Assembly (NCBI GenBank): GCA_964590105.1
Contig: CAZPYM010000002.1
Span: 26,697 to 90,696 of the forward strand
Origin: an uncultured Gammaproteobacteria bacterium
GTDB taxonomy: Bacteria; Patescibacteriota; Patescibacteriia; UBA11705; JABHMO01
Length of the DNA stretch: 64,000 bases
Reading direction: 5' to 3'
Shown: piece by piece, positions 32,890 to 52,629 of the stretch
Position numbering within the stretch: position 1 is the stretch's first letter
How the letters are laid out: each line of letters opens with the position of its first letter
The notes under the pieces: generated by a model
The model's input: the letters and a program-made list of their open reading frames with translations, nothing else
What the model was told of the DNA's origin: nothing
Databases searched by the model: none
Program-made: the position numbers and the translations under genes

Positions 32890-32938
32890 TTCTTCAAGAA
32901 TCGCCTAAACTCGGCGCCGACTTGAACAGGCTTCTCAA

Positions 32939-33038: not shown

Positions 33039-33277
33039 ACGCACCTCCGCGTTTACGCTGATCATGTTCCTCCCGCACTGCGCGGGACTCCATGACTAAC
33101 GCGATAGAAAAGATCAAGTTTCTTATTTACTTTAAGGTGTTATTATAATGCGCTATTTAAAAAATGTCAATGGCGGCTTGGCGTTTCGTTGCTAATATTA
33201 CCGTTTTTCATCGGTTACGAATTACGAATTGGCTACTAATATTCGTAGGAATGCGTAGATTCATAGCAGATTGGTAA

Positions 33278-34294: not shown

Positions 34295-34355
34295 AGGAAT
34301 ATAGTAACAAACTGTTAAATTGCTAAATTGTTAAACTGTTTAAACAAAACGGGGT

Positions 34356-35213
34356 TTAGCAATTCTCCAGATATTTAACAATCTCTTCCGCAACATTGAT
34401 GCCGACAACCCGCGTGAATCGCTTAAACTTTGGTGAGCGATTGACTTCAAGCAACTTTTGCTGGTCGCCATCCCGAATAATGTCAACGCCAGCAATGTCA
34501 GTATTGGTGGCCTTGGCCGCTTTTAAAGCCAGTGCTTTCAATTCTTCGGTTAGAATAGCGGGCGTTGAACGCTTTTCCAAAGGAACCTTTTTTCTTTCCG
34601 AATTATAGTAGCTCATTCTTTGCATTACTCCCAGTATTTTATCGCCAACAACTAAAACGCGGAAGTAAAAATCAGCATTTACCTTTTTCTGAATTAAAAA
34701 TCGCTCAACCCTATTCTTTCTCTTGATAAAAAACTGTTCCAACCCTTTTTTTGTTTTAAATGAATAAATATTTCGGCTGTGCATGCCGTTTATGTCCTTA
34801 ATCAGAACCGGCCGCGGAATCTTTGTTAAATATCGGCTAAACTCTTCAAAAGTTGAAAAGTGAAAGGTGTCAACACAGGGAAGGTTTTCCTGAAAAAATT
34901 CAAACGACATGAACATTTTGTCAAATTCATAAGCCTTGTTGTACAGTTCGCGGTCAATCACTTCCGTGCCGGAGAACTTGAAGTAGCGAGCCAATGTTTT
35001 TGCCTTGGCAAAATACGGAGCAATGCCACGGAACAAGCAAACATCAAAATTTTCCAATTTTTCACCGCGCCAAAAGGCCTGCATTTTGTTATCCTTAACA
35101 ATCAATGAAATTTTATGCAAGGAAGTGCGCAGAACTTCATGGCCGCGCCTTTTCGCCTCGATCATTATTTGGTTATTTTCAATAGAGCGCGGTCCGATTA
35201 TCAATAGCTTCAT
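34356..35213 (-). CDS. RimK-like ATP-grasp ligase
   Basis: About 285 aa, with a C-terminal block DIAGVDIIRDGDQQKLLEVNRSPKFKRFTRVVGINVAEEIVKYLENC typical of RimK/GshB-type ATP-grasp. Confidence 0.65.
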   Translation of the reverse strand: MKLLIIGPRSIENNQIMIEAKRRGHEVLRTSLHKISLIVKDNKMQAFWRGEKLENFDVCLFRGIAPYFAKAKTLARYFKFSGTEVIDRELYNKAYEFDKMFMSFEFFQENLPCVDTFHFSTFEEFSRYLTKIPRPVLIKDINGMHSRNIYSFKTKKGLEQFFIKRKNRVERFLIQKKVNADFYFRVLVVGDKILGVMQRMSYYNSERKKVPLEKRSTPAILTEELKALALKAAKATNTDIAGVDIIRDGDQQKLLEVNRSPKFKRFTRVVGINVAEEIVKYLENC

Positions 35214-35449
35214 AAATGGGTTCGGGAAATTAAGTAAATTAGTGAATTGGCGAATTAGCGAATTAAGAGATTAAGAGAATTAAGGGATTAAGAGAATATA
35301 GAATCTCTCGCTTTACTATACTTTATTTAAATTTGATCTATAATTCGCGTCATTCGTGTGTTCCTTAGTCATTCGTGTTAATAACTAATTCACTTTCCTG
35401 TGTCAACCCGAACGAGGAGGAACGACGAGTCGAGGGTCGTGTTACCCCT

Positions 35450-36847
35450 TTACTTGGTAGGATCGATTAAAAATTTTTTCAAGTCCCGCCGGCCGACTAA
35501 AACCGGATATTTTAAATTTTCGCGCATAATCACCGAAGCATTGCTATTTATTTCCACTCCTTCAAGTTCGATCTTCAAAGGAATCTCCATTCGATAAGAA
35601 ACTCCATGACTGCTGAATGTTTTCGCAATAGCCACAATGTCAGGATGTTTTTCCAGTTCAAGCCAAACCTTTTTCCGGCTTAGCTCTGCCACTTCTTCCG
35701 CTGTCATGACGCGTTTGATATTAAATTTTTCATAATATTCAATGGCCTCACCAAAACCCAATTGTCTGGCCAGGTTTTCATCAATCGCCGTAATGCCGGC
35801 CCCAGTGTCCAACTTGGCTTCAATCGCCACCCATTGACCGTCTTTATCTTTAATTTTTATCGGGTTAATAATGCCCAGCACTCGCTTGCCGGTCATTTCC
35901 TCAACCTCGCTTTCAATTTCACCGCCAAAAAGTTCCTTGGCTACCGCAATTCCCTTTTTCACTGTTTTTATTTTCAATCCTTTTACCCGCAAAAGCCGAT
36001 CCTTGATCGGAGCTAAATTAGCAATCTGAATTGACAGTCCGGGATGCGCATTTAATTCCAAAATTACCGGCCCTTTTTCTCTGTCCATAGCAATGTCTAC
36101 GCCAACATAATTTAGACCACAGGCAACAGCAGCTTTGACAGCCAGTGTTAATATATTTTCCCAGTTTGGAATTTTGATCCCGCGCAAAGGCAATTTCATA
36201 TCAGGCAAATTCTCAATCAAACGATCATGATGAATCGCATAAGTGGTCACTCCGGTAGAAATATCAAGCCCAACGCAAATTCCGCCCTGATGCAAATTGG
36301 CTTTTCCTCTTGATTCCTTGGTAGGCAATCGAAGCATAGCCATCACAGGAACCTTATTGTAAACAATAACTCGAATATCCGGAATTCCTTTGTAACTATA
36401 TAGTTTAAATACGGGGTGAATTTTCAGTCTTTCTTCGAAAAAAGCCGCATCCGGCGCATTTGTTTTGGAATAATCACCGTCCAGAATATTGGAAACTCGA
36501 AGCATGATATCTTGCACACTCGCTTCGCGGTCAAGCGGTAATACCCACTTGCCATTTTTTTTCCGACCAAAAGTAACCATAATGCCCTCGCCGCCAAGTC
36601 CTTGATTTGGCTTTAAAACAAAACTTTTCGGCAGGGAGGCCCAGTCGAAATTATAAAATTCCTTGCGATTACGAATAGCCGCAATGATTCTTGACACCGG
36701 TAATTCATGCTTCACCAGAAGTCTTTTGGTGCGTAATTTTTCGTCAACCAATTTGATCTTCTTCTTGGAAGCGCCGGGCCGGACAAAAGTCAAATTCCTG
36801 GCATTCATGCCGAGAACCTGCTTACTTTTTTTCAGCCAACTCAACAT
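35450..36847 (-). CDS. RimK-like ATP-grasp fused to a retropepsin-like aspartic protease domain
   Basis: The N-terminal ATP-grasp carries LELNAHPGLSIQIANLAP. The C-terminal ~140 aa contain WVAIEAKLDTGAGITAIDENLARQLGF (D-T/S-G-A aspartic protease motif), the domain widely annotated as an ATP-dependent zinc protease partner of RimK. Confidence 0.7.
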   Translation of the reverse strand: MLSWLKKSKQVLGMNARNLTFVRPGASKKKIKLVDEKLRTKRLLVKHELPVSRIIAAIRNRKEFYNFDWASLPKSFVLKPNQGLGGEGIMVTFGRKKNGKWVLPLDREASVQDIMLRVSNILDGDYSKTNAPDAAFFEERLKIHPVFKLYSYKGIPDIRVIVYNKVPVMAMLRLPTKESRGKANLHQGGICVGLDISTGVTTYAIHHDRLIENLPDMKLPLRGIKIPNWENILTLAVKAAVACGLNYVGVDIAMDREKGPVILELNAHPGLSIQIANLAPIKDRLLRVKGLKIKTVKKGIAVAKELFGGEIESEVEEMTGKRVLGIINPIKIKDKDGQWVAIEAKLDTGAGITAIDENLARQLGFGEAIEYYEKFNIKRVMTAEEVAELSRKKVWLELEKHPDIVAIAKTFSSHGVSYRMEIPLKIELEGVEINSNASVIMRENLKYPVLVGRRDLKKFLIDPTK

Positions 36848-38462
36848 TTTTTATAACCTTTCGAAAACGATAATATTCAGTTAAACGCAAACCGGTCCAC
36901 TTACCAATCAATAAATTAATAATAACAGTTAATAGTATATATTCCGGATAACCCAGGATCAGCGTGCGCAATGTTTGCCAGCTCGCCACCCAATAACAGA
37001 GCACTGACAAGAAAAGAGTTTCCAAAATCAACATGACCGCGCTCTTGTTTCCTCTTTCAATTTGCACGGAAATAAATTTTTCAGTCAAAAGCACGATAAC
37101 CAAAATCGGAAAAATCGACATTTCCAGCAAACCGTTTTTCCCAAATCTGGCGCCGAGCAAAAAAATCACAAAAATCGAAAAACTTACCAAGCTAAGAACA
37201 ATGGCCATCCTCGGTAAATATGACAATTGAATTTTTCTAGCCAACAGACGCCCGAGTGTTCCGACTAGCAGAGTTATCAAGAACAACGCCAGTCCGTATT
37301 TCAATCCGGTAACCAAAAAAGTAACTGCCACGATCGATGGCGTGTAAATTCCAAGCGCCTTGACACCGATAATCTGCCGAGAAAAAGCCATGATGGTGGC
37401 GATAACCGGCAAAATTAAAATTAGATAAATAGTATTAATCGGCACGCCATTATCAACCATGTAGCCCACACAATAAGACAAAAAATTCCAAGGCTTCAAT
37501 GTACTGGCATCTCTTTGCGTATGCAGACCGACCAAACGATAATCCACTTGACTGGCGCGCAATTTGTTTAGCAAAGATTCAAAATCAGAACTGCTAAAAA
37601 CATCATTGGCCGCCGCCGGTTTAGTCAGGACAATGAATTGCGGATTTAGAAGATTATATAAGCTTTGCGCCAATTTGGCCGTGGCGGAAAAATTTTGTTC
37701 GGTAACTACTACAAAAAATTTATTTTGGAAACCAAAACTATTCAAATCACCGCCATTTTCGCTCGAACTCCTGGTTAAATTTTGCGCCGCTTCAAGAAAA
37801 GCATTCAAACCAAAATTTTTATCCGTCCAAATAATTACAGCGCCGGCTTGACGAATATTTTCCTTGCTTTTTAAAACCTGCTGAGCCAGTTCCTTCTCAA
37901 TAACATAGTCTACCTCTCCCTGTTGATTGATGTTAACGACCAATATCCCTTGAGAGCTAGCAATATTATTTACACCGCGAAATTTTTCATCGTCAACAGC
38001 TTTATCAGAAATCAACACGACCACGTCTTTGTCAACGCTTACCATCACTTCATCGCCGCTTTCGTATTTCAAACTATTGGAGTAGCCCACGATCCGCAGG
38101 CTGGCGCGATAGACTCCGGATGAATAATAAACATGAGCAACCTCCTTGCCGCTGGCCACATCGCCGTCGCCAAAATCCCAAAAATATTCCGGATTATCCA
38201 CGCCGGAGACAACAGAACCCAAGGCTGAAAAAACCACCTGGTTTTTGGCCACTATATTTTTGTCTTCTCCCGCAACAGCCTTGATAACCGGCAGCTGAAT
38301 AACCGGCTCTTCCTGAGCGAAAATAGCCCCTTTTGGTAAAAAAACAAAAAAGCATAAAAGCAAAAAAACAAAAAAACCAAAAAGCGCACTTTTTCTGAGC
38401 CTGAATTGCCCTCTATAAAAAAAACTTGATCCTAATTTTTCCCATATATTATTTCTAGTCAT
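36822..38462 (-). CDS. membrane protein: N-terminal PKD-like domain plus C-terminal multi-pass (about 7 TM) domain
   Basis: Signal/TM, then EYFWDFGDGDVASGKEVAHVYYSSGVYRASL (the PKD WDFGDG motif), a long extracytoplasmic region, then at least 7 hydrophobic helices. Overlaps the ATP-grasp/protease gene by 26 nt. Confidence 0.7.
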   Translation of the reverse strand: MTRNNIWEKLGSSFFYRGQFRLRKSALFGFFVFLLLCFFVFLPKGAIFAQEEPVIQLPVIKAVAGEDKNIVAKNQVVFSALGSVVSGVDNPEYFWDFGDGDVASGKEVAHVYYSSGVYRASLRIVGYSNSLKYESGDEVMVSVDKDVVVLISDKAVDDEKFRGVNNIASSQGILVVNINQQGEVDYVIEKELAQQVLKSKENIRQAGAVIIWTDKNFGLNAFLEAAQNLTRSSSENGGDLNSFGFQNKFFVVVTEQNFSATAKLAQSLYNLLNPQFIVLTKPAAANDVFSSSDFESLLNKLRASQVDYRLVGLHTQRDASTLKPWNFLSYCVGYMVDNGVPINTIYLILILPVIATIMAFSRQIIGVKALGIYTPSIVAVTFLVTGLKYGLALFLITLLVGTLGRLLARKIQLSYLPRMAIVLSLVSFSIFVIFLLGARFGKNGLLEMSIFPILVIVLLTEKFISVQIERGNKSAVMLILETLFLSVLCYWVASWQTLRTLILGYPEYILLTVIINLLIGKWTGLRLTEYYRFRKVIKNVELAEKK

Positions 38463-39944: not shown

Positions 39945-39956
39945 ACGATTTAGAAA

Positions 39957-40040
39957 AATTACAAATTATGCGCCCAAGGCGCATCCGCCCATGGCGGACA
40001 AATAACAAATTACAAACAATAAAGCGGAAATTATAAAAAA
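39957..40040 (-). repeat. ~85-nt twin-hairpin dispersed repeat, copy 1 (inverted orientation)
   Basis: Its reverse complement reads ttataatttccgctttattgtttgtaatttgttatttgtccgccatgggcggatgcgccttgggcgcataatttgtaattt, almost identical to 41375..41500. Confidence 0.8.
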
Positions 40041-41340: not shown

Positions 41341-41500
41341 TTGTCCCAAAGGTATCCTCTTGTGATAGTTTGTAATTTCCGCTTTATTGTTTGTCCCGAA
41401 GGGCTCCTCTTGTGCTAATTTGTAATTTCCGCTTTATTGTTTGTAATTTGTTATTGGTCCGCCATAGGCGGATGCGCCTTGGGCGCACAATTTGTAATTT
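41341..41500 (+). repeat. tandem ~52-nt duplication followed by copy 2 of the twin-hairpin repeat
   Basis: ttgtcccaaaggtatcctcttgtgatagtttgtaatttccgctttattgtttg, then tcccgaagggctcctcttgtgctaatttgtaatttccgctttattgtttg, then taatttgttattggtccgccataggcggatgcgccttgggcgcacaatttgtaattt. Confidence 0.8.
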
Positions 41501-41613
41501 ACTGTTTGTCAGGGGGCTCACGCCTCTTTTCAATATACCAAAAGCTGCCCTTATCCATGCTTGAAGGGCAGCTTTTTTATTTACGCTAATTTAATTTCTA
41601 ATTAAACCCTTAA

Positions 41614-42015
41614 CTAATTACCCGTTGTGGCGTCAAGCAATGAAGTGATCACAAAGTTAGTAATAGCGTAAGCCGCCAAAATTATAGCGAGGCCAATCAC
41701 CGCGTTGGTCAGCCACTGCTTAGCCTTGGTGACATCCTCAGGATTGCCTCCTGCCGTCATCCACAGGAATCCGGCGTATATTACGATAACAATCACAACC
41801 ACGCCAAGAAAAGTTAAAACAACTTTTATTATATTTCCGACCATCTCAGGCAATGGCGTCGGATCTTCCGTGTCATATGCGGTTCCACCTACACTATTTA
41901 AGTTATTCGTTAACTCCGTTTTGAAATCAGTTGCTGCCACCGGCTGGGCCGTCAGTGATATCATAAAACTACTGACAAGCACGAGCATTAAACAAAGCGC
42001 AATAATATTTTTCAT
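41614..42015 (-). CDS. T4SS-pilin-like (TrbC/VirB2-like) small secreted protein, paralog 1
   Basis: Signal peptide, a variable mature N-terminus, then the conserved core VIVIVIYAGFLWMTAGGNPEDVTKAKQWLTNAVIGLAIILAAYAITNFV. Confidence 0.7.
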   Translation of the reverse strand: MKNIIALCLMLVLVSSFMISLTAQPVAATDFKTELTNNLNSVGGTAYDTEDPTPLPEMVGNIIKVVLTFLGVVVIVIVIYAGFLWMTAGGNPEDVTKAKQWLTNAVIGLAIILAAYAITNFVITSLLDATTGN

Positions 42016-42035
42016 AAATTTTTCCGAATTACTTG

Positions 42036-42491
42036 TTATATAAATATTGAATTAATGAGCGCGCTAACGCCGGTAGCAACAGTTAATTTGTCCACTACAA
42101 AATAAGTAATCGCATAGGCGGCAAGAGCAATACCCAGCCCGATCACAGCCTGCGACAGCATGTCTTTTGCTTTGGTGACTCTTTCAGGATTACCACCAGC
42201 CGTCATCCACATTATACCGCTATAAATAACTAAAACAAGTAAAATAATTCCAAGTAAAACTAAAATCACTTTGATCGCCGCGCCAACTATAGTGGGTAAA
42301 TCCTTGTTCGGAACACCGCCGGCCGCTGACGCTCCCATGCCTTCGCCGGCTTTGCCAAGAGTGGAGGTGATTGAATCTGTACTGGCAGGAGCAGGCGGCG
42401 CAGCCTGTACGACAGCAATCCCGCAAAATATAAATACCATTGAGGCCAAAACTCCGATGCTAATCAATTTTTTAAAATTTGTTACAGTCAT
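42036..42491 (-). CDS. T4SS-pilin-like protein, paralog 2
   Basis: Core LVLVIYSGIMWMTAGGNPERVTKAKDMLSQAVIGLGIALAAYAITYFV. Confidence 0.7.
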   Translation of the reverse strand: MTVTNFKKLISIGVLASMVFIFCGIAVVQAAPPAPASTDSITSTLGKAGEGMGASAAGGVPNKDLPTIVGAAIKVILVLLGIILLVLVIYSGIMWMTAGGNPERVTKAKDMLSQAVIGLGIALAAYAITYFVVDKLTVATGVSALINSIFI

Positions 42492-42535
42492 ATTATTTTT
42501 AATTTATTAATTTCCAGCAAAATTCATTCCCCTTT

Positions 42536-42592
42536 ATAATTTGTTATTTGTCCGCCATAGGCGGATGCGCTTTGGGCGCATAATTTGTAATT
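42536..42592 (+). repeat. twin-hairpin repeat, copy 3 (partial), between pilin paralogs 2 and 3
   Basis: ataatttgttatttgtccgccataggcggatgcgctttgggcgcataatttgtaatttcc. Confidence 0.8.
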
Positions 42593-42595
42593 TCC

Positions 42596-43000
42596 TTATT
42601 CCACCCCGACCGCGCTGGTCATTGCCTTAACCACGTAATATGTAATCGCATATGCCGCCATGGTCACCGTCAAGCCGATCGCGCCATCTATGATCATGCC
42701 CCTGCCTTTGGTCACTCCCTCAGGAGCGCCCGCGGCCGTCATCCAAGTTACGCCACCGTAAACAACGATTATCAAAAATATGATCCCGGCCACGCTGACC
42801 AAAACCCCGATCGCTTTACCAATCACGCCCGCCGGATCAACTTTGTCGGTTTTTAATCCCGCCGGCCCAGCTGAGGTTTCAAGCCCTTTGAGCGCCTTGG
42901 CAGTTGCTTTTTCATTGGCCATGACCCCGTCCGCAACTAATACAAAATTAATCGTAAAAAACGAGATGAATAACAAACAAATTAATAATTTTTTAAACAT
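42596..43000 (-). CDS. T4SS-pilin-like protein, paralog 3
   Basis: Core IIVVYGGVTWMTAAGAPEGVTKGRGMIIDGAIGLTVTMAAYAITYYV. Confidence 0.7.
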   Translation of the reverse strand: MFKKLLICLLFISFFTINFVLVADGVMANEKATAKALKGLETSAGPAGLKTDKVDPAGVIGKAIGVLVSVAGIIFLIIVVYGGVTWMTAAGAPEGVTKGRGMIIDGAIGLTVTMAAYAITYYVVKAMTSAVGVE

Positions 43001-43007
43001 AATAAAT

Positions 43008-43406
43008 TTAATTTACTGTAGTTCCAATTTTTTCAATCACATAATGCGTAACCTGATAGGCCATGAGGGTCACCAGCAGACCGATGGCGCCATGGATCAG
43101 GGTATTGCGCGCTTTTGTTACATTTTCAGGATTGCCGCCGGAAGTCAGCCAAGTAATACCACCGTACAAAACAACGATCATGAAAATTATTCCCAAAAAG
43201 CTGACCGCCATGCCAACATATTTTCCAATTATATATTCCAATGTTGGCGTATCAGCCCCTTCAACTGCCAGCCCGGACATCTTGGCGGCCTTGTCCAGCC
43301 CGCCGGCTAGACTGGTCGTATCTCCGGCCAGCACAACGGAAAAACAAAAAAAACTTCCAATTGCCAGCAAAATAATAAGTATTAGAATTGAATGTGTATT
43401 TTTCAT
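43008..43406 (-). CDS. T4SS-pilin-like protein, paralog 4
   Basis: Core MIVVLYGGITWLTSGGNPENVTKARNTLIHGAIGLLVTLMAYQVTHYV. Confidence 0.7.
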   Translation of the reverse strand: MKNTHSILILIILLAIGSFFCFSVVLAGDTTSLAGGLDKAAKMSGLAVEGADTPTLEYIIGKYVGMAVSFLGIIFMIVVLYGGITWLTSGGNPENVTKARNTLIHGAIGLLVTLMAYQVTHYVIEKIGTTVN

Positions 43407-43487
43407 AGCTGATTCCCCGCCACTATAAAGCTGGTGGAAATACTTTCAACTTTTCCCTTTTCCATTTTCCCTTTTCCCTTTCAACTT

Positions 43488-43880
43488 CTACTCAACTGTC
43501 GCCGCCATTAAACTAGTCAGAACAAACCTGGTAATAGCGTAAGCAGAAAGAATAATAATTAGGCCAACAATTCCGGACATGATATATCCCGTAGCCTCCT
43601 TGGCTTTTTCATCACTGCCGCCAGCCACCATAAACTTGAATCCTCCGACCAGAATAAGCACAATGGCCACTATGCCAAGAAATCCCAAAACCACATTGAT
43701 GAGCGCGCCCGCGGTTTCCTTGAGGTCCCGATCTCCTAGTTCTGTCTGAATTTCCACATTGCTTAGCCCATACAATTCACCATTATCAGCCAAAACAGCA
43801 GAAGAGTAAAAAAAACTTCCCATTACAAGTAATATAAAAATGGCTAAAAGTGAACGCGCATTTTTCATACTTCTCATCAA
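43488..43880 (-). CDS. T4SS-pilin-like protein, paralog 5
   Basis: Core LILVGGFKFMVAGGSDEKAKEATGYIMSGIVGLIIILSAYAITRFV. Confidence 0.65.
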   Translation of the reverse strand: MMRSMKNARSLLAIFILLVMGSFFYSSAVLADNGELYGLSNVEIQTELGDRDLKETAGALINVVLGFLGIVAIVLILVGGFKFMVAGGSDEKAKEATGYIMSGIVGLIIILSAYAITRFVLTSLMAATVE

Positions 43881-43953
43881 GCAACTATTGCCTGAATAAT
43901 TATTTAATGAGAACCGGGCAGGAGGAATACCCCCCCTGCCCGCAGATTCTTTT

Positions 43954-44349
43954 TTATTCAGTTGTTGCCGTCATTAAGCTGTCCAAGACAAAACTGGTAA
44001 TGGCGTAAGCCGCGAGAATTATTGCCAGGCCGATAATACCATTGATAATGTATTTCTTGGCCTCATCAGTTTTCTCTGCTGCGCCTCCGGCTGTCATATA
44101 CTTAAAGCCGCCCATCAACACGATCACAATAGCTACTACTCCCAAGAATCCCAAAATCACACTTATAACTGAGCCGATCGTTGCCTTTAGATCCTGTTTT
44201 CCAAGACCTAACTCCCCCATGTCCTCAAGGCCATATATAGCATCCCCCTCATTATCACCAGCTAAAACCGGCAAAGCCACTGTCATCGCCATCAAGAGAA
44301 AAAGGCAGACGCCTGTAATCATCTTGATTTTTTTGTTGTCTAAATACAT
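43954..44349 (-). CDS. T4SS-pilin-like protein, paralog 6
   Basis: Core IVLMGGFKYMTAGGAAEKTDEAKKYIINGIIGLAIILAAYAITSFV. Confidence 0.65.
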   Translation of the reverse strand: MYLDNKKIKMITGVCLFLLMAMTVALPVLAGDNEGDAIYGLEDMGELGLGKQDLKATIGSVISVILGFLGVVAIVIVLMGGFKYMTAGGAAEKTDEAKKYIINGIIGLAIILAAYAITSFVLDSLMTATTE

Positions 44350-44390
44350 GTGCGTTTCAATTAATTATTAATTAGTTTATATTTAAATTT

Positions 44391-45179
44391 TTAACCCCAG
44401 AAATCTAAATTTCCAATAATATAACCAACAATGATGTAACTGATAAAAATCACAAACAAACCCAGCGCCGCCCAGATCATAGATTTTTCCGCCGTGTCAA
44501 TTTTCTTTGACTCGCCCATAGCAGTCATCCACATTATACCACTATAGATGAAAACTATCAAAGCGATTGAACCGATTATCCCCAAGAGCAGGCTGACAGC
44601 ATTACCAGCCAAGACTGAAACATCATCGGTCTTGACCATCTCGCCCGGAAAAGTTGAATCAACCTTGGCAATGGCGTCTTTTACCGCTTGTTCTGCTGAT
44701 GGACCGGATAGCGCCGGAGCGGGTACCGTAGCTCCACCGCTTGGAAGGGTGGCAGAACCGGTTCCTCCTACGGCAGCGCCAGCAGGGGCGACTGTTTCTT
44801 CCACTTCCTTTACGTTAGTCAGTGTGCAAGTCGCACTCACTGTAACTCCTGGAATTTTTGGCAGGATGCTCGTATTGCAGTCTGCTTCCTTGACATCGGT
44901 TTTAGAATAAGTGCAATCACAATTAGGATCAGCCCACGTACAATTAGCAGCGTTAACAAAGTCTACACAAATTTGCTTGTTTGCTGCACTCAAAGCCAGA
45001 CCAAGAATCGTTCCTTCGCATTTTGTGCATGCTGGTTCGTCCACGAGAAAACCAGATAATTTTCCTGCGCAGTCGCAAGTTCCGACCTTTACTTTTACCG
45101 CGCCACTAGCTTGCGGGAAAAAAAATAACATCAAACAGCACAATAATGTCGTCGGGATTATAAGTTTTTTTATTTTCAT
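44391..45179 (-). CDS. Cys-rich secreted protein with C-terminal pilin-like domain
   Basis: Signal peptide, about 12 Cys in the first 110 aa (GTCDCAGK...CTKCEG...CTWADPNCDCTY), an Ala/Gly/Pro-rich linker, then LIVFIYSGIMWMTAMGESKKIDTAEKSMIWAALGLFVIFISYIIVGYI. Confidence 0.65.
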   Translation of the reverse strand: MKIKKLIIPTTLLCCLMLFFFPQASGAVKVKVGTCDCAGKLSGFLVDEPACTKCEGTILGLALSAANKQICVDFVNAANCTWADPNCDCTYSKTDVKEADCNTSILPKIPGVTVSATCTLTNVKEVEETVAPAGAAVGGTGSATLPSGGATVPAPALSGPSAEQAVKDAIAKVDSTFPGEMVKTDDVSVLAGNAVSLLLGIIGSIALIVFIYSGIMWMTAMGESKKIDTAEKSMIWAALGLFVIFISYIIVGYIIGNLDFWG

Positions 45180-45182
45180 AGT

Positions 45183-45551
45183 TTATGTTACTCCTGATAA
45201 TTTCCCAATCAAAATTTTGATGATAACGCCGGCCAGTAAAATTATCGCCAGCCCGATCACCGCGTTACTTAGAATACCTGTGGCTGTCTTGATTCTACCT
45301 GACGCGCCGCCGGAAGTCATATACATGACTCCGCCTATTACAAACATGAGTAGAGCCAGTGATCCAGAAATTCCAAGAATAATCTGAGCCACAGTAGCAA
45401 TTGTTTGCTCCACCGCGCTCAAATTGCACTCCTTCACGTCAGCATCTCCGGCGCAGGAGCTCGGTACGATCGACGGAAAAGCCATGGCCGCGTGTCCGGC
45501 TATTAAACCAAAACAAATAAGAATAATTATGAATATTATATTTTTTCTCAT
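45183..45551 (-). CDS. T4SS-pilin-like protein, divergent paralog 8
   Basis: LLMFVIGGVMYMTSGGASGRIKTATGILSNAVIGLAIILLAGVII. 4-nt overlap with the upstream SBP gene. Confidence 0.6.
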   Translation of the reverse strand: MRKNIIFIIILICFGLIAGHAAMAFPSIVPSSCAGDADVKECNLSAVEQTIATVAQIILGISGSLALLMFVIGGVMYMTSGGASGRIKTATGILSNAVIGLAIILLAGVIIKILIGKLSGVT

Positions 45552-46957
45552 AATTTTTTGAGGTAAGAATAATTCATTTTTTCAGCCGCCTGCTTCAAAG
45601 CATCCTTGCTGGTCAGCCCTCCGGACAAAGTCGCATTCACCATATCGGAAAAAATTTGTTCCGCGGCCGCCGGGCTTTCCCCGCGATACCAGCTTTTGGC
45701 GGTTAATATCTGGTCGGCAAAAACAGCCAAATCATCGTCTGCCAGCTGTGCATTGATTAATTTGGTTGAACGCAGAGCCGTGGCTTTTTTTGATTTGTCC
45801 AAATATGTTACTACATTTTTCTCATCAGCCATGAACTGCACAAAATCCCAGACATAATCTTTTATCTTGGTTTTATTTGACACTGCCTCAACCCAATAAT
45901 TAGCATAATTAACTTTTTGGTTTTGTCCGACCTGGGGCACTGGCGCTATGCCAAAGTTCAATTTTGGCGCCTGCGCCAGGATCTGCTCGCGATCATAGGC
46001 ATAGCCAAAGAAATAGGCCGCTTTACCGTTTATAAAAGCTTCAAGCGAACCCGGCATTTTGTCATTCCAACAATATCCTTCATAAAGAGGGGAAGCGAAT
46101 TGGACATAATACTCAAGCGCGCCAAGACCCGGCGCGGATGCCAGGCCGGAAACCTGCTTTGGCATTTTGTCAAAAGTAACAGTACCTGATTCGTCAATCA
46201 TTGGCGCCAGATTCTGCATCATTAGAAGCGACAAAATATCAAAACTTCTAGCAACATTCGTTGCGGTTCCCATGGCCGCGCCGGAAACTAAAATTTCGCC
46301 GGTTGATTCATCTATCTTGGTAATTTTTTTTACCTGCTCCTGAAAATCAGTCCAAGTCGCCGGCGGCTCGGCAATGCCAGCGTTATTCAATAAATCATTA
46401 TTATAATACATCACCAAAGTATCCATATTAAGTGGCAGACCCCAGACCTGTTCGTTTCTATCTTCGTCATTAATAATCACATCATCAGCAACCACTTGTA
46501 AAAACTTTTTTCTAACGTCACCGGCTGTTAAAGATTTTTTGGTTACAAATTCCACCACCTCTTCTTTTTTCACGCTTCCCTTCATGTATTTTATCGGGGT
46601 CACGGTTTTTGGCGGCATGGGCAATAACTTTGTCTGATAGCGCGGCAACCAGGTGTTGTGAAGCGACATAATGTCAGGACCCCGGTCCTCGGCCAGCGCA
46701 TCAATCAATTCTTTTTCATATTCGTCATAACGCAATTTTCGATATTCGATCGTCACGTTAGGATGAAGTTGTCTATAAGCGCTAATAATATCTTTCACTG
46801 AGCTTTCATTATCAAAAACGCGCCACCAAATAATTTTTTCTTTTTTATAAGCTTTAATCGCGGAGGTATCGCCGCCCTTGGTGCAGGCAGTGGTGGAAAA
46901 AATCAGCCCTACAATCACCATGGCGACAAAAAATATTTTTGTTTTTCGGCTGGCCAT
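45548..46957 (-). CDS. ABC transporter substrate-binding lipoprotein (sugar-type SBP family 1)
   Basis: Lipoprotein signal ...IFSTTAC, 469 aa, with SBP_bac_1-like composition and length. It is co-directional with and overlaps the first pilin-like gene. Confidence 0.7.
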   Translation of the reverse strand: MASRKTKIFFVAMVIVGLIFSTTACTKGGDTSAIKAYKKEKIIWWRVFDNESSVKDIISAYRQLHPNVTIEYRKLRYDEYEKELIDALAEDRGPDIMSLHNTWLPRYQTKLLPMPPKTVTPIKYMKGSVKKEEVVEFVTKKSLTAGDVRKKFLQVVADDVIINDEDRNEQVWGLPLNMDTLVMYYNNDLLNNAGIAEPPATWTDFQEQVKKITKIDESTGEILVSGAAMGTATNVARSFDILSLLMMQNLAPMIDESGTVTFDKMPKQVSGLASAPGLGALEYYVQFASPLYEGYCWNDKMPGSLEAFINGKAAYFFGYAYDREQILAQAPKLNFGIAPVPQVGQNQKVNYANYWVEAVSNKTKIKDYVWDFVQFMADEKNVVTYLDKSKKATALRSTKLINAQLADDDLAVFADQILTAKSWYRGESPAAAEQIFSDMVNATLSGGLTSKDALKQAAEKMNYSYLKKL

Positions 46958-47133: not shown

Positions 47134-48003
47134 TTATAAATTTAAACTTTTTAAATATTTTTTAAATTCCTTTTTCAGGTCCGGTCGCTGCAGAGCCAGC
47201 TCAACATTTGCCCGCAAATAGCCCAGCTTGGAACCGGTATCATAATATTTGCCGTTTATTTTCTTGGCGTAGATCGGCCGCTTTTTCGACAGCCCAAAAA
47301 TCGCGTCCACCAGCCAGAGCTCTCCGCCTTTGCCCAGTTTTGTTTTTTCCAATTGTTCGAAAATATCCGGAGTTAAAACAAAGCCGCCAAGCGAGGCCAG
47401 AGTTGACGGCGCTTTTTCCGGTCCCGGCTTTTCCACGATTGATTTAATTTGAATAACGTCTTTCTCAACTTCCACTCCGTCGATTATACCATATTTATTC
47501 GTATCTTGCTTTGAAACTTCGTACGCCGTCAGAACAGGGTCGCCATATTTTTCATAAACATCAATCAACTGTCCCAATTGCGACCTTCCCTTGGTATAAA
47601 AAAACTCATCGCCCCACATTACTGCAAACGGTTCGTCGCCAATCAAATGTTTAGCACAAAGCACCGGCGTGCCGTTGCCGTACGGTCCCTTTTGTCTGAT
47701 ATAAATAAAATTGGCCATGTCCGCGATTCTTTTGACTTCCAACCGCATCTCTTCTTTGCCAATTTTCTTTAGATAATTTTGCAGTTCGTAATTATAACCA
47801 AAATGATCTTCCACCGCCCGCTTGCCCGAACCGGTAACCAAAATAATTGTTTCAATTCCTGCCCTCACAGCATCCTCCACTACGTATTGAACAATCGGCT
47901 TGTCAACAATGGGTAACATTTCTTTTGGCTGGGCTTTTGTGGCGGGCAAAAATCGCGTGCCATAGCCGGCCACGGGAATGATTAATTTTTTTACTGAAGA
48001 CAT
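47134..48003 (-). CDS. galU: UTP--glucose-1-phosphate uridylyltransferase
   Basis: KLIIPVAGYGTRFLPATKAQPKEMLPIVDKPIVQYVVEDAVRAGIETIILVTG is the GalU hallmark. Confidence 0.9.
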   Translation of the reverse strand: MSSVKKLIIPVAGYGTRFLPATKAQPKEMLPIVDKPIVQYVVEDAVRAGIETIILVTGSGKRAVEDHFGYNYELQNYLKKIGKEEMRLEVKRIADMANFIYIRQKGPYGNGTPVLCAKHLIGDEPFAVMWGDEFFYTKGRSQLGQLIDVYEKYGDPVLTAYEVSKQDTNKYGIIDGVEVEKDVIQIKSIVEKPGPEKAPSTLASLGGFVLTPDIFEQLEKTKLGKGGELWLVDAIFGLSKKRPIYAKKINGKYYDTGSKLGYLRANVELALQRPDLKKEFKKYLKSLNL

Positions 48004-50619: not shown

Positions 50620-51846
50620 TTATTCATAACGCAGAGCTTCAATTGGATTCATCCTAGCTGCACGCCTGGCCGGATAATAGCCGAAAACAATTCCAATGGC
50701 CGCTGACACACCGAAAGCGAGCAAAACCGAGCTGATTGAGATCGACGTTGCCGTACCACTGAATTTTGTAACCAACCAAGAAGCCCCACAACCAACGATC
50801 ACGCCAATAATTCCACCAATAAAAGTCAAGGCAACCGCTTCTACAAGAAATTGAGAACTAATATTCCTGTTTTTTGCTCCGAGCGATTTTCGCAAACCAA
50901 TCTCACGGGTGCGTTCAGTAACCGTAGTCAACATCATATTCATAATACCAATCCCGCCGACCAAAAGAGAAATCCCGGCAATCGCCCCCAAAAGCAAAGT
51001 TAAAGTATCCGTAACAGAAGTCATAGTATTCATGATATCAGCCTGATTCATAATGCTAAAATCCGGACTTAGCGGGTCGGCTATTTTATGTCTTGTAAGC
51101 AATAAATTGGTAATTTCTTGCTGAACTTCATTCATCGCTTCCGCACTTTTTACTTGAACACTAATATTACTGACCGCCTGATTGCCGGTAAAATATTGCT
51201 GGGCAGTGGTAATCGGCACATAAACCAAATCATCTGAACTGCCAAAGCCAGTGCCGCCTTTGCTGGCGGTAATTCCAATGATCGTGAACTCTAAATTTTC
51301 TATTTTAATTTTTTGTCCCACCGGATTTGAATTCTCACCGAACAAGTCATCTCTGACCGTAGGCCCAATCACGGCGACTTTTGAAATTTTTTCTATCTGC
51401 TGATTCACCAGGAAAGCTCCGCTTTCCATTTCAATATTCTTAACAAGACCATAAAACGAATCAACGCCATAAATGCTGGTATTGGTATTTGTTCCTTGCT
51501 TGGTTTTTATTTGTTTTCTGGAACTAACGGTCGGCGCGACATATTCGATTTGATCAGATTGCAATTTTATTGCCTCAGAATCTTCAGAAGTCAGCGTTGT
51601 TGCCGAACCCGAACCACCTCTAACCACAGAACCAACATTTTTTTGCGAACCCGGCGAGACAACCAACAGGTTTGAACCAAGCTCTTGAATATTTGTCTCA
51701 ATGCCCTTGGCCGCTCCCTGTCCAATTGAAATCATGGCAATCACCGAACCAATACCAATGACAATACCAAGTATAGTCAAAATCGATCTAGCCCGATTAG
51801 CGGAAATAGCTAAATAAGTTTCCTGCAGTAGATCAGAAACCAGCAT
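50620..51846 (-). CDS. MacB/FtsX-family ABC transporter permease
   Basis: N-terminal TM, a large periplasmic domain, then three C-terminal TM helices with an FtsX-like block (RTREIGLRKSLGA). Confidence 0.85.
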   Translation of the reverse strand: MLVSDLLQETYLAISANRARSILTILGIVIGIGSVIAMISIGQGAAKGIETNIQELGSNLLVVSPGSQKNVGSVVRGGSGSATTLTSEDSEAIKLQSDQIEYVAPTVSSRKQIKTKQGTNTNTSIYGVDSFYGLVKNIEMESGAFLVNQQIEKISKVAVIGPTVRDDLFGENSNPVGQKIKIENLEFTIIGITASKGGTGFGSSDDLVYVPITTAQQYFTGNQAVSNISVQVKSAEAMNEVQQEITNLLLTRHKIADPLSPDFSIMNQADIMNTMTSVTDTLTLLLGAIAGISLLVGGIGIMNMMLTTVTERTREIGLRKSLGAKNRNISSQFLVEAVALTFIGGIIGVIVGCGASWLVTKFSGTATSISISSVLLAFGVSAAIGIVFGYYPARRAARMNPIEALRYE

Positions 51847-51851
51847 ATTTT

Positions 51852-52553
51852 TTATTTAATTTTTAAAATCGCTCCACTAATATCGGAAACAATTTTACCG
51901 TCTTTTATTTCTATCATTCGGTCAGCATGCTCGGCAACATATTTTTCATGCGTAATAATAATTATTGTATGCCCTTTTTCTCGATTCAACTTCTTAAATG
52001 TTTCCAGCACAATATCGCCGGTCTTTGAATCAAGGTTGCCGGTAGGTTCATCAGCCAAAATCAAATCAGGATCATTAATCAAAGCTCGGGCAATAGCCAC
52101 TCTCTGCATCTGTCCGCCGGAAAGTTGATTTGATAGATTATGCCATCGACTTTCTTCGAGACCCGCAGAAATTAGAGCAGCTTTCGCTTTTTCATAACGA
52201 GCTGCTCTCGGAGTCTTATTGTCATACAACAAAGGCAAAAGCACATTTCTAAGGACAGTGGCTCTCGATAAAAGATTAAACGACTGAAAAACAAATCCAA
52301 TCTTTTGCGATCTTATTTCAGCCGACTCATCATCCGTTAATTGAAGTACATTCTGATCATTTAAATAATAACTTCCACTGGTCGGCCGGTCGAGCAGTCC
52401 CAAAATATGCATTAGGGTGGATTTACCCGAGCCTGATGGACCAATAATCGCCACAAATTCTCCCTTTTTAATTTCAAAACTAACATTGTCCAGCACTTTT
52501 ACTGATGTTTCGCCAGTTTTATAAATTTTTTCAACATTTTCGCATTTAATCAT
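51852..52553 (-). CDS. ABC transporter ATP-binding protein (MacB/LolD type)
   Basis: GPSGSGKST Walker A, LSGGQMQRVAIARAL signature, ILADEPTGNLD Walker B. Confidence 0.9.
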   Translation of the reverse strand: MIKCENVEKIYKTGETSVKVLDNVSFEIKKGEFVAIIGPSGSGKSTLMHILGLLDRPTSGSYYLNDQNVLQLTDDESAEIRSQKIGFVFQSFNLLSRATVLRNVLLPLLYDNKTPRAARYEKAKAALISAGLEESRWHNLSNQLSGGQMQRVAIARALINDPDLILADEPTGNLDSKTGDIVLETFKKLNREKGHTIIIITHEKYVAEHADRMIEIKDGKIVSDISGAILKIK

Positions 52554-52629
52554 AAAATAATTTCATTGCGTTATTCCCATTATGCTACGCTCGGATAAAT
52601 TTCTATATTACAAACACAAACAATGCTAA

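What the first reader, a model, noticed from the sequence alone, without database searches (positions are those of the whole stretch)
41614..46957. Tandem array of eight T4SS-pilin-like paralogs (one fused to a Cys-rich domain) co-transcribed with a solute-binding lipoprotein
Eight consecutive minus-strand genes each encode a signal peptide, a hypervariable short mature N-terminus and a conserved C-terminal hydrophobic core (…Y(A/S)G(I/F)xWMTAGGxPExVTKAK…A(V/I)IGLxIxLAAYAIT.(F/Y)V), resembling TrbC/VirB2-type T4SS pilins reported in CPR genomes. One paralog carries a ~110-aa, 12-cysteine N-terminal domain plus an Ala/Gly/Pro linker. The block starts with an ABC-type SBP lipoprotein overlapping the first pilin-like gene by 4 nt. 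Variable tips on a conserved stalk, with a repeat element inside the array (42536..42592), suggest a diversifying surface-filament gene family, possibly for antigenic variation or host-cell attachment. There are no VirB4/VirB6 or other T4SS machinery genes nearby in this window.
Basis: partly seen in the sequence, partly recalled or inferred. Interest (0 to 1): 0.7.

Follow-up and report, generated by a model that had tools for sequence, protein, structure and literature searches.

The report
Patescibacterial VirB2-like pilin array with binding protein
Eight neighbouring genes encode small pilin-like membrane proteins of a kind already described in tandem arrays in ultra-small (Patescibacteria/CPR) bacteria; what looks unreported is that the array is almost always preceded by one sugar-type binding lipoprotein gene and keeps the same gene order in related genomes.

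Summary
Eight minus-strand ORFs (41614-45551) follow a 469-aa SBP_bac_1 gene (45548-46957), which overlaps the first by 4 nt. All eight match Pfam PF18895 (T4SS_pilin), seven above the curated cut-off. One also passes the NCBIfam cut-off for a mycoplasma-ICE pilin-like conjugation protein. Each has a signal peptide, a variable 24-37-aa N-terminal region and a two-helix hydrophobic hairpin.

This class is already published: 441 VirB2-like arrays of 2-11 genes in Patescibacteria (PMC12102498), and an essential array in Southlakia (PMC10633639).

The antigenic-variation reading is not favoured. Paralogs are old (core identity 25-65%). Each is closer to the same-position gene in related genomes (52-71%) than to its neighbours.

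Additional findings here:
- 70 of 75 related binding-protein loci have a pilin gene starting within 300 nt downstream, and 4 of 4 distant first-pilin homologues lie in an array beside such a gene.
- No VirB4/VirD4-like ATPase was seen within ±10 kb of 88 loci or in the 64-kb window.
- Cys-containing or Cys-rich heads concentrate at array positions 1-2. The 10-Cys domain of the 262-aa paralog is a lineage-specific addition.

Verdict: a new member of a known kind, with a conserved binding-protein linkage worth a note.

The parts
45548..46957 (-). Sugar-type extracellular solute-binding protein (SBP_bac_1), a probable lipoprotein and the first gene of the block.
   Evidence: PF01547 at E 3e-25. 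Best PDB sequence relatives are sugar/maltose/trehalose binding proteins. Cys25 at the end of the signal peptide is nearly invariant in 24 orthologues. There are more than 2000 homologues in Patescibacteria. No permease or matching ATPase is adjacent.
45183..45551 (-). Pilin paralog at position 1 (122 aa), with two Cys (33, 42) in the mature N-region. Its start overlaps the SBP stop by 4 nt.
   Evidence: PF18895 at 37.4 bits. Positional orthologues L007_1 and L008_1 are 52-57% identical in the core. Across related loci, 88% of position-1 genes carry at least 2 Cys in the N-region and 25 of 74 exceed 180 aa. Four of four distant homologues lie in an SBP-linked array: three directly after the SBP, and one (L093) in a divergently oriented sub-array about 2 kb from it.
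44391..45179 (-). Pilin paralog at position 2 (262 aa): signal peptide, 10-Cys domain (about residues 27-125), Ala/Gly/Pro linker (about 126-160), then the pilin hairpin (187-261).
   Evidence: PF18895 at 34.8 bits over residues 184-254. In the AF2 model the hairpin has pLDDT around 90 and the Cys domain is below 50. Position-2 orthologues in L007-L010 are only 112-131 aa, so the domain is a lineage-specific addition. The only other pilins found with Cys-rich N-domains in this subfamily are P0002-P0004. The domain alone has no solid homologue among 1.84 billion representatives.
43954..44349 (-). Pilin paralog at position 3 (131 aa), the 'GGFKYMTAGG' type.
   Evidence: PF18895 at 36.2 bits. NF045849 (Mbov_0395 pilin-like conjugal transfer protein) at 42.3 bits against a cut-off of 40. 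Core identity is 71% to L007_3 and L008_3.
43488..43880 (-). Pilin paralog (130 aa from TTG, or 126 aa from the ATG at 43868). It is a duplicate of the position-3 type.
   Evidence: PF18895 at 40.0 bits. Core identity to 43954-44349 is 65%. L001 calls it as 126 aa.
43008..43406 (-). Pilin paralog at position 4 (132 aa).
   Evidence: PF18895 at 32.3 bits. The best match in L007 is the same-position gene L007_4, at 54% core identity.
42596..43000 (-). Pilin paralog at position 5 (134 aa).
   Evidence: PF18895 at 23.8 bits, below the gathering score of 26.6, but E 2e-40 to the array HMM built here. Core identity is 59-67% to L007_5 and L008_5.
42036..42491 (-). Pilin paralog (151 aa) with an Ala/Pro/Gly/Ser-rich N-region.
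   Evidence: PF18895 at 34.6 bits. Core identity is 62% to L008_6.
41614..42015 (-). Last pilin paralog (133 aa), followed by a GC-rich hairpin and a T-run (about 41560-41600).
   Evidence: PF18895 at 43.2 bits and PF04956 TrbC at 28.0 bits against a cut-off of 27.9. The AF2 model shows a helix-loop-helix, H55-87 and H92-131, with pLDDT 76-85. Core identity is 71% to L007_9. This type is triplicated in L007. The terminator-like sequence is read directly.
42533..42596 (.). Intergenic twin-hairpin repeat between paralogs 42596-43000 and 42036-42491. It is one of three copies in the window.
   Evidence: Other copies lie at 41419-41503 and 39956-40037, at 92-95% identity. It folds at -16.2 kcal/mol with z-score -2.8. 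It is absent from the related loci of other organisms.
47134..48003 (-). UTP-glucose-1-phosphate uridylyltransferase-like gene (NTP_transferase) upstream of the SBP. It is a frequent syntenic neighbour and not necessarily part of the system.
   Evidence: PF00483 at E 1.7e-25. It lies directly upstream of the SBP in 31 of 54 related loci that have enough upstream sequence.

Best explanation
This is a chromosomal, vertically inherited operon-like block of an uncultured Patescibacteria (CPR) bacterium. By SBP similarity, its nearest named relatives are Kuenenbacteria and Falkowbacteria.

What the sequence shows: each of the eight genes encodes a Sec-exported VirB2/TrbC-like pilin. After signal-peptide cleavage the protein has a short, variable, hydrophilic N-terminus and then two long hydrophobic helices joined by a short, mostly basic loop (WMTAGGNPE.VTKAK in the best-conserved copies).

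What comparison shows: the eight are not interchangeable variants but an ordered set of old paralogs.
- Position 1 carries a disulfide loop and is translationally coupled to the SBP.
- Position 2 is here fused to a 10-Cys head domain through a flexible linker.
- Positions 3-8 are plain subunits, with some recent duplications at the distal end.

What is inferred: a type IV secretion apparatus encoded elsewhere in the genome takes the subunits from the membrane and polymerises them into a pilus-like surface filament used for contact with a host cell. The variable N-termini and the Cys-rich heads would sit on the outside, as the N-terminus does in solved conjugative pili (my own knowledge, not tested here). 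Positions 1-2 would act as minor, head-bearing subunits and the others as shaft subunits.

The sugar-type SBP lipoprotein is made together with them. It most likely works at the same surface structure, either capturing a carbohydrate ligand or nutrient or recognising a host glycan. It is unlikely to feed a classical ABC importer, because no permease is linked to it.
For: Family assignment:
- PF18895 matches all eight genes, seven above the cut-off. PF04956 TrbC reaches its cut-off for one.
- NF045849, a mycoplasma-ICE pilin-like conjugal transfer protein, is above its cut-off for 43954-44349 and scores E 5e-9 for 41614-42015.
- Signal peptide plus two hydrophobic segments are seen in the sequences. 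The AF2 hairpin has pLDDT 76-92.

Literature:
- VirB2-like pilins occur in 1,948 Patescibacteria assemblies that also have VirB4, and lie near virB4 in 1,135 of them. There are 441 arrays of 2-11 genes (PMC12102498).
- The pilin array inside the Southlakia T4SS cluster is essential for epibiotic growth (PMC10633639; PMC12857230).

Ordered paralogs:
- Same-position genes in L007 and L008 are 52-71% identical in the core, against a mean of 40% within the window.
- The N-terminus is more variable than the core.
- Cys-bearing or long N-regions are concentrated at positions 1-2 across 74 loci.

SBP linkage:
- The overlap in the window is 4 nt.
- A pilin starts within 300 nt of the SBP stop in 70 of 75 loci.
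- Contexts L007-L010 show the same layout.
- The reverse test, starting from distant position-1 pilins, gives 4 of 4.
- The SBP is of the sugar-binding type.
Against: - No T4SS machinery (VirB4, VirB6, VirD4) is present in the 64-kb window or within ±10 kb of 88 related SBP-pilin loci. The link to a secretion apparatus therefore rests on family membership and published co-location in other lineages.
- The predicted hairpin gave no significant match to any solved pilin, or to any solved structure at all. The profile of the eight paralogs found no PDB pilin by sequence. Such a simple fold cannot discriminate.
- No pilus made of PF18895 proteins has been seen in any organism, to my knowledge; the review still calls it a possibility.
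- In 8 of 37 loci with at least 6 kb of downstream sequence, the SBP is followed by a single pilin gene and then housekeeping genes. That fits a two-protein SBP-plus-membrane-partner unit as well as it fits a filament.
- The function of the SBP at the filament is pure inference.
Confidence: 0.55

Rival explanations
1. The hairpin proteins are membrane-resident partners of the SBP, not pilus subunits. The SBP and the position-1 protein would form a conserved two-component surface unit, for example a receptor with a membrane anchor or docking subunit, or a non-canonical uptake or signalling module. The further paralogs would extend this membrane complex. On this reading the PF18895/TrbC similarity reflects only a shared two-helix membrane hairpin, and no T4SS is involved.
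For: - The SBP-pilin pair is almost invariant: 70 of 75 loci, and 4 of 4 in the reverse test.
- The pair occurs alone, without further pilins, in 8 of 37 long loci.
- No T4SS ATPase lies near any of 88 loci.
- There is no structural or PDB sequence match to solved pilins.
- The SBP has no linked permease.
Against: - Matches come from three independently curated pilin or conjugation models (PF18895, PF04956, NF045849), with E down to 4e-11 and covering the whole hairpin.
- The same family lies beside virB4 in 1,135 assemblies and is essential within a T4SS cluster (PMC12102498, PMC10633639).
- Nothing known to me explains why an SBP would need four to eleven different two-helix partners.
Confidence: 0.2
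2. The array would be a diversifying gene family for antigenic or host-range variation, in which alternative subunits are expressed or recombined so that the exposed tip changes while the stalk stays constant.
For: - N-terminal mature regions diverge much faster than the core: 22% against 40% among paralogs, and 40% against 88% in the recent duplicates L007_8/L007_9.
- There are lineage-specific duplications at the distal end: 43954-44349/43488-43880 in the window, L007_7-9 and L008_6-7.
- The same idea is raised for Patescibacteria in PMC12102498, by analogy with Bartonella and Anaplasma.
Against: - Gene order and paralog identity are conserved across genomes whose SBPs are only 47-64% identical. 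Most paralogs therefore predate these lineages and are kept as distinct genes.
- All copies are complete genes with their own signal peptide. There are no silent cassettes.
- DNA similarity between paralogs is at most 80% over stretches up to 76 nt, apart from one 90% match of 30 nt.
- Six independent assemblies of this organism are 99.9-100% identical across the array, so no population-level switching is visible.
- The intergenic repeat is dispersed, not array-specific.
Confidence: 0.12
3. The block is part of the envelope-glycan machinery. The small exported proteins would be carriers or substrates for O-glycosylation, or scaffold proteins of a surface layer, acting with galU, Wzy_C-type ligases and GT-C enzymes. 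The sugar-type SBP would handle the glycan.
For: - galU lies directly upstream in 31 of 54 loci.
- Wzy_C, polysaccharide flippase, DUF2079 or PMT_2 genes recur within 10 kb. In the window these are 58228-59574, 61642-62793 and 62800-63981.
- Several N-regions are rich in Ser, Thr, Ala and Pro.
Against: - The association is loose: distances vary and the intervening genes are housekeeping.
- It is compatible with simple glycosylation of pilins, so this is an addition to the best explanation rather than an alternative.
- No direct test was possible.
Confidence: 0.08

Closest known systems
VirB2-like pilin arrays of Patescibacteria (Quiñonero-Coronel et al. 2025, PMC12102498; the essential array of Ca. 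Southlakia epibionticum ML1, Wang et al. 2023, PMC10633639)
   Same: Both consist of tandem PF18895/PF04956 genes (2-11 per array) with low pairwise identity, each gene having its own signal peptide, in a monoderm ultra-small bacterium. Within-array identities are in a similar range (published mean 25%, maximum 54%, method not stated; here 25-49% to the first paralog over the alignment).
   Different: The Southlakia array lies inside the T4SS gene cluster. This one lies in a housekeeping neighbourhood (galU, PGI, YebC, RuvC) with no T4SS gene in 64 kb. It is headed by a solute-binding protein gene, which the paper's main text and its two supplementary files held as text do not mention. Conserved gene order and head domains at positions 1-2 are also not described there.
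TrbC/VirB2/TraA conjugative pilins of Gram-negative T4SS (PF04956)
   Same: Both have a signal peptide, two hydrophobic helices and a short basic connecting loop. One paralog reaches the PF04956 cut-off.
   Different: The host here is a monoderm. The mature N-terminus is longer (24-37 aa, or 160 aa in the fused paralog). There are eight paralogs instead of one gene. There is no adjacent VirB3-B11. No match to solved pilin structures was found.
Mbov_0395 / MMCAP2_0565 pilin-like conjugal transfer protein of mycoplasma ICEs (NCBIfam NF045849)
   Same: It is a small two-helix protein of a monoderm conjugation system. 43954-44349 scores 42.3 bits against a cut-off of 40, and 41614-42015 scores 35.8.
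   Different: In mycoplasma it is a single gene within a mobile element. Here there is a chromosomal array with no ICE features.
Multiple VirB2 paralogs of Bartonella and Anaplasma T4SS loci
   Same: Both show tandem amplification of the pilin gene with sequence variation, which has been proposed to serve variation or host range (cited in PMC12102498).
   Different: In this case paralog identity and order are conserved across distant relatives, which points to fixed, distinct roles.
Orphan or accessory solute-binding proteins of Gram-positive conjugation systems (PrgZ of pCF10, a pheromone-binding OppA homologue; from my own knowledge)
   Same: In both, a surface-anchored SBP-fold lipoprotein is encoded with a monoderm T4SS-related gene set and has no permease of its own.
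   Different: PrgZ is a peptide-binding SBP_bac_5 protein on a plasmid. This SBP is of the sugar-type SBP_bac_1 family and is chromosomal. The analogy is a lead only and was not tested.

Membership tests
T4SS_pilin (PF18895) / TrbC-VirB2 (PF04956) pilin superfamily | Significant match to the family HMM over the whole hairpin domain. | tested here: met
   All eight match at E from 4e-11 to 5e-5. Seven reach the gathering score of 26.6 bits; 42596-43000 scores 23.8. PF04956 scores 28.0 bits against 27.9 for 41614-42015.
T4SS_pilin (PF18895) / TrbC-VirB2 (PF04956) pilin superfamily | Cleavable signal peptide followed by two hydrophobic helices joined by a short polar or basic loop. | tested here: met
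   Shown by the alignment and hydropathy analysis. AF2 helices are 55-87 and 92-131 in one paralog and 187-219 and 224-261 in the fused one. For 43008-43406 and 42596-43000 the hydropathy scan flags only the first helix; the second is seen only in the alignment. The cleavage site itself is only predicted by eye.
T4SS_pilin (PF18895) / TrbC-VirB2 (PF04956) pilin superfamily | Encoded with, or dependent on, T4SS machinery (VirB4 ATPase, VirB6, VirB3). | tested here: not met
   None is present in the 64-kb window or within ±10 kb of 88 related loci.
T4SS_pilin (PF18895) / TrbC-VirB2 (PF04956) pilin superfamily | Structural similarity to solved conjugative pilins. | tested here: inconclusive
   Foldseek against the PDB gave no hit at E <= 0.001 and only generic helical hairpins. 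A profile search of PDB sequences found no pilin.
T4SS_pilin (PF18895) / TrbC-VirB2 (PF04956) pilin superfamily | Polymerises into an extracellular pilus. | not testable with these tools
   This needs microscopy or biochemistry.
Patescibacterial VirB2-like pilin array (PMC12102498) | Two or more PF18895/PF04956 genes in tandem, or separated by one gene, in a Patescibacteria genome, with divergent sequences. | tested here: met
   There are eight in tandem. Identity to the first paralog is 25-49%. The taxon is inferred from SBP homologues named Kuenen-, Falkow-, Uhr- and Buchananbacteria or Patescibacteria group.
Canonical SBP-dependent ABC importer | The SBP is encoded with BPD_transp_1-type permeases and an ABC ATPase. 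| tested here: not met
   The SBP fold is present (PF01547). No permease lies beside it in the window or in L008-L010 and L091-L094. The only ABC system in the window is a MacB/FtsX-HlyD type exporter at 50620-54504.
Cassette-type antigenic variation locus (pilE/pilS-like) | Silent or partial copies and long high-identity repeats that allow gene conversion, with lineage-specific turnover of copies. | tested here: not met
   All copies are complete. Inter-paralog DNA identity is at most 80% over stretches up to 76 nt, apart from one 90% match of 30 nt. Positional orthologues are conserved. Six assemblies of this organism are 99.9-100% identical across the array.

The most novel reading that the evidence does not exclude
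The sugar-type binding lipoprotein and the Cys-loop 'position-1 pilin' would form an obligate, anciently conserved pair that nucleates the array. On this reading, the PF18895 filament (or membrane complex) of these Patescibacteria is an SBP-coupled device for capturing or importing host-derived carbohydrate. That would be a concrete genomic handle on the published speculation that the patescibacterial T4SS/pilus serves uptake from the host rather than secretion (PMC12857230). It may work without a neighbouring, or even any, classical T4SS ATPase.
Probability: 0.2. Interest if true: 0.7.

Novelty: new member of a known kind. Interest (0 to 1): 0.35.

Why it matters
Arrays of VirB2-like pilins are among the few gene sets shown to be essential for the epibiotic life of Patescibacteria, and what they do is still unknown. 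This locus adds nothing new in kind. It does show that, in one large clade, the array has three regular features:
- It is a fixed, ordered set of subunits rather than a variable family.
- Head domains sit at the first two positions.
- It is almost always preceded by one conserved sugar-type binding lipoprotein, often with overlapping or abutting reading frames, and lies away from T4SS ATPase genes.

That linkage gives experimenters a specific partner protein and a possible ligand class to test when asking whether these structures serve adhesion or uptake.

Tried and rejected
- Fold search of the AF2 model of 41614-42015 against the PDB gave only insignificant generic helical hairpins. It was useless for deciding pilin identity.
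- A profile of the eight paralogs against PDB sequences found no pilin.
- AF2 on the 262-aa fusion left the Cys-rich domain unpredictable, with pLDDT below 50.
- An exhaustive HMMER search of the Cys-rich domain found only itself and P0125, an 864-aa repeat protein matched in seven weak stretches. I regard that as composition or repeat-inflated, not as homology.
- The search for strain-level variation failed: the six other contigs that carry the 262-aa protein are the same strain, at 99.9-100% identity.
- Rfam found no RNA family in the array; the only hit in the window is a tRNA at 57210-57296.
- The intergenic repeat was considered as a recombination or phase-variation device. I rejected this because copies also lie outside the array and flank the PGI gene, and it is absent from related organisms.
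- I tried to name the source organism through cluster look-up, but no names are on record.
- dN/dS on the N-terminal regions was not attempted. At 20-40% identity the codon alignments would be saturated.

Full report
**1. Observation**

One search lists eight consecutive minus-strand ORFs:
- 41614-42015 (133 aa)
- 42036-42491 (151 aa)
- 42596-43000 (134 aa)
- 43008-43406 (132 aa)
- 43488-43880 (130 aa)
- 43954-44349 (131 aa)
- 44391-45179 (262 aa)
- 45183-45551 (122 aa)

They are preceded by a 469-aa ORF at 45548-46957, whose stop overlaps the start of the first small gene by 4 nt (ATGA). The gaps along the array, in order, are 3, 41, 73, 81, 7, 104 and 20 nt. A GC-rich hairpin followed by a T-run lies after the last gene (sequence).

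All eight match Pfam PF18895 (T4SS_pilin) with E from 4e-11 to 5e-5. Seven are above the gathering score; 42596-43000 has 23.8 bits against 26.6. The last gene also reaches the TrbC/VirB2 (PF04956) cut-off, at 28.0 against 27.9 bits. The large ORF is an SBP_bac_1 protein at E 3e-25.

NCBIfam adds an independent model. NF045849, the Mbov_0395-family pilin-like conjugal transfer protein of mycoplasma ICEs, scores 42.3 bits (cut-off 40) for 43954-44349 and 35.8 bits for 41614-42015.

An HMM built from these and related sequences finds only these eight genes in the whole window.

- The quoted consensus motif holds for only some of the paralogs. Just five columns besides the initial Met are invariant.
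- The 262-aa protein has ten Cys in its mature N-domain and two in the signal peptide.
- The start of 43488-43880 may be the ATG at 43868, as called in L001.

**2. Anatomy**

Each protein has an N-terminal signal peptide, a hydrophilic mature N-region of 24-37 aa (164 aa in the fused paralog), and a core of about 70 aa made of two hydrophobic helices. In the best-conserved copies the helices are joined by WMTAGGNPE.VTKAK.

AlphaFold2 models give a helix-loop-helix:
- Residues 55-87 and 92-131 in 41614-42015, with pLDDT 76-85.
- Residues 187-219 and 224-261 in 44391-45179, with pLDDT around 90.

The Cys-rich domain and the Ala/Gly/Pro linker of the fused paralog stay below pLDDT 50.

Core identity among the eight averages 40% (range 25-65%). 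The mature N-regions average 22%.

**3. Surroundings**

The window is a housekeeping stretch of a CPR-like chromosome. It carries SMC, a class A PBP, an ATP-grasp cluster with a 7TM-transglutaminase protein, RuvC, YebC, PGI, GalU, an RRM protein, a MacB/HlyD exporter, a sigma factor, a Wzy_C protein, a GT4 glycosyltransferase and a flippase. It has no VirB4, VirB6 or VirD4, and no ABC-importer permease.

**4. Related loci**

*Same strain.* The 262-aa protein is found on other contigs that are 99.9-100% identical to the window, so they are the same strain.

*SBP homologues.* The SBP has more than 2000 homologues. The named ones come from Kuenen-, Falkow-, Uhr- and Buchananbacteria or the 'Patescibacteria group'. 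Contexts of four SBP orthologues at 47-64% identity all read NTP_transferase (GalU), then SBP, then four to nine PF18895 genes (L007-L010).

*Metagenome scan.* A scan with an SBP alignment returned 80 more loci. I scored them with my own pilin HMM.
- 70 of 75 loci with at least 500 nt of downstream sequence have a pilin gene starting within 300 nt of the SBP stop. At least three of the five misses reflect my start-coordinate and distance filters.
- Several loci share the window's 4-nt overlap between the SBP stop and the first pilin start, and many more have gaps of only a few nucleotides.
- Among the 37 loci with at least 6 kb of downstream sequence, most have 4-11 pilins.
- Eight of those 37 have only one pilin, followed by an HTH protein, RecA and other housekeeping genes.
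- In about six of them, 5-7 kb of unrelated genes separate the first pilin from a six-gene array.

*Reverse test.* Four distant homologues of the position-1 pilin (37-44% identity) were looked up. All four lie in an array next to an SBP_bac_1 gene.

*T4SS machinery.* Large ORFs around these 88 loci fall into ComM, SMC, Wzy_C, flippase, YchF, RpoB and similar families. The only other ORFs with a Walker A motif read, by eye rather than by Pfam scan, as RecA-, ABC- and FeoB-like. I saw no VirB4/VirD4-type ATPase.

**5. Ordered paralogs, not a free-running variable family**

Each window paralog finds its best match at the same relative position in L007 and L008, at 52-71% core identity. That is higher than its identity to its own neighbours. 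The three recent pairs are the exceptions: 43954-44349/43488-43880 at 65%, 42036-42491/41614-42015 at 64%, and 43008-43406/42596-43000 at 55%.

Positions differ in kind.
- *Position 1:* nearly always has at least two Cys in the N-region (88% of 74 loci), often close to a C-x-(L/F)-(N/S/D) type motif. It is longer than 180 aa in 25 of 74 loci, reaching 454 aa with about 40 Cys in L009.
- *Position 2:* has at least 2 Cys in 33% of loci.
- *Positions 6 and beyond:* almost never have Cys or extensions.

The position-2 orthologues of the 262-aa protein are only 112-131 aa long in L007-L010. Its 10-Cys domain is therefore a lineage-specific addition. Only three other pilins of this subfamily with different Cys-rich N-domains were found. 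The domain alone has no convincing homologue among 1.84 billion representative proteins.

N-regions evolve faster than cores even in recent duplicates: L007_8 and L007_9 are 40% identical in the N-region against 88% in the core. At DNA level the paralogs share at most 80% identity over stretches up to 76 nt, apart from one 90% match of 30 nt.

**6. The repeat**

The element at 42533-42596 is one of three copies of a twin-hairpin intergenic repeat. The others are at 39956-40037 and 41419-41503, and those two flank the PGI gene as an inverted pair. It is absent from the related loci of other organisms. I treat it as a dispersed REP-like element.

**7. What is known**

- PMC12102498 searched 3,035 Patescibacteria genomes with PF18895 and PF04956. 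It reports VirB2-like pilins in 1,948 VirB4-containing assemblies, lying near virB4 in 1,135 of them. It also reports 441 arrays of 2-11 pilin genes, with mean identity 25% and maximum 54%. It raises antigenic variation or host range as possible meanings.
- PMC10633639 showed that the predicted pilins inside the T4SS cluster of Southlakia epibionticum are essential.
- PMC12857230 calls a pilus a possibility and speculates about uptake from the host.
- Neither the main text of PMC12102498 nor its two supplementary files held as text mention a solute-binding protein. A full-text search for the combination found nothing relevant.

**8. Explanation**

*Shown:*
- Family membership at HMM level.
- Signal peptide plus hairpin architecture.
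- Conserved order of the paralogs.
- Conserved SBP linkage.
- Head domains at positions 1-2.
- Absence of nearby T4SS genes.

*Inferred:*
- The proteins are subunits of a VirB2-type surface filament assembled by a T4SS encoded elsewhere.
- Positions 1-2 act as minor, head-bearing subunits, and the variable N-termini are exposed.
- The co-produced sugar-type SBP acts at the same structure, in ligand capture or host-glycan recognition.

I put this at about 0.55. The main rival, at 0.2, is that these are membrane partners of the SBP with no T4SS involved. That rival is supported by the SBP-plus-single-pilin loci and by the lack of any nearby ATPase. The antigenic-variation reading (0.12) conflicts with the positional orthology. 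A link to envelope glycosylation (galU, Wzy_C, DUF2079 and PMT_2 neighbours) is possible, but as an addition rather than an alternative.

**9. Verdict**

The phenomenon is already described, so this is a new member of a known kind. As far as the searched literature shows, three details are new:
- The near-obligate SBP-pilin pairing.
- The conserved paralog order.
- The concentration of Cys-rich heads at positions 1-2.

These are incremental, but they give a testable handle on function. Interest is 0.35.

Noticed in passing
window 39956-40037 (+), 41419-41503 (-), 42533-42596 (-); tandem 50-nt units at 41341-41440: A dispersed intergenic element made of two adjacent short GC hairpins (TGCGCC..GGCGCA and TCCGCC..GGCGGA) within AAATTACAAA-type flanks. 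Two copies form an 82-nt, 95%-complementary inverted pair around the oppositely oriented PGI gene. Beside one copy is a 2 x 50-nt tandem repeat. No copy was found in the related loci of other organisms.
   Followed up: partly
window 43407-43487: The 81-nt gap between two pilin genes holds a purine-rich, near-palindromic repeat (GTTGAAAG GGAAAAGGGAAAATGGAAAAGGGAAAA GTTGAAAG). A promoter-like site (TTGAAA-16-TATAGT, 43449-43422) lies just upstream of the next gene. This may be an internal regulatory region.
   Followed up: no
window 43915-43942: A 12-bp GC-rich hairpin without a proper T-run lies between paralogs 43954-44349 and 43488-43880. It could be an attenuator or an RNA-stability element inside the array.
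   Followed up: no
window 3659-6427, 9101-9847, 13444-14172, 22918-23697: Four proteins in one 64-kb window carry an N-terminal TrmB-type HTH, one of them 922 aa long. A similar gene lies upstream of the array in L007 (7561-8382).
   Followed up: no
window 31222-38462: A cluster of four ATP-grasp (RimK / ATPgrasp_ST) genes lies next to a PKD-domain 7TM 'inactive transglutaminase' membrane protein. That membrane protein keeps the same position downstream of RuvC in L007 and L008.
   Followed up: no
L009 9419-10783; L094 2425-4734; L010 9407-10048; L045 4365-5864: In relatives, pilins at positions 1 or 2 carry very large extensions. One is 454 aa with about 40 Cys in repeated C-x-C / G-x-C modules. 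Others are 769, 499 and 213 aa. Head domains on VirB2-like hairpins are therefore common and very diverse in this clade.
   Followed up: partly
L091 4071-7975; L092 4172-7999: Some relatives have two SBP_bac_1 genes flanking galU directly upstream of the pilin array.
   Followed up: no
L010 13213-15201; L091 14917-16564; L092 15648-16525; L093 2255-3853 and 5428-7386; window 58228-59574: Large polytopic membrane proteins with glycosylation-related annotations recur within 10 kb of the arrays (DUF2079 and PMT_2 in the loci listed; Wzy_C in the window and in L008-L010 and L091), together with galU. This hints that the pilins or the surrounding envelope may be glycosylated.
   Followed up: partly
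L035, L044, L046, L059, L087 (just downstream of the first pilin): Where only one pilin follows the SBP, the next gene is always a 220-230-aa protein with an N-terminal HTH, which looks RodZ-like by eye. It is followed in L035, L044, L046 and L059 by a RecA-like gene (by eye; not in L087). The same HTH gene follows the first pilin in the 'split array' loci (L047, L079-L081).
   Followed up: no
P0125 (864 aa): The only non-self hit of the Cys-rich domain is a protein built of at least seven near-identical repeats of about 100 aa. Its similarity to the domain (38% over about 50 aa per repeat) is probably not meaningful.
   Followed up: partly
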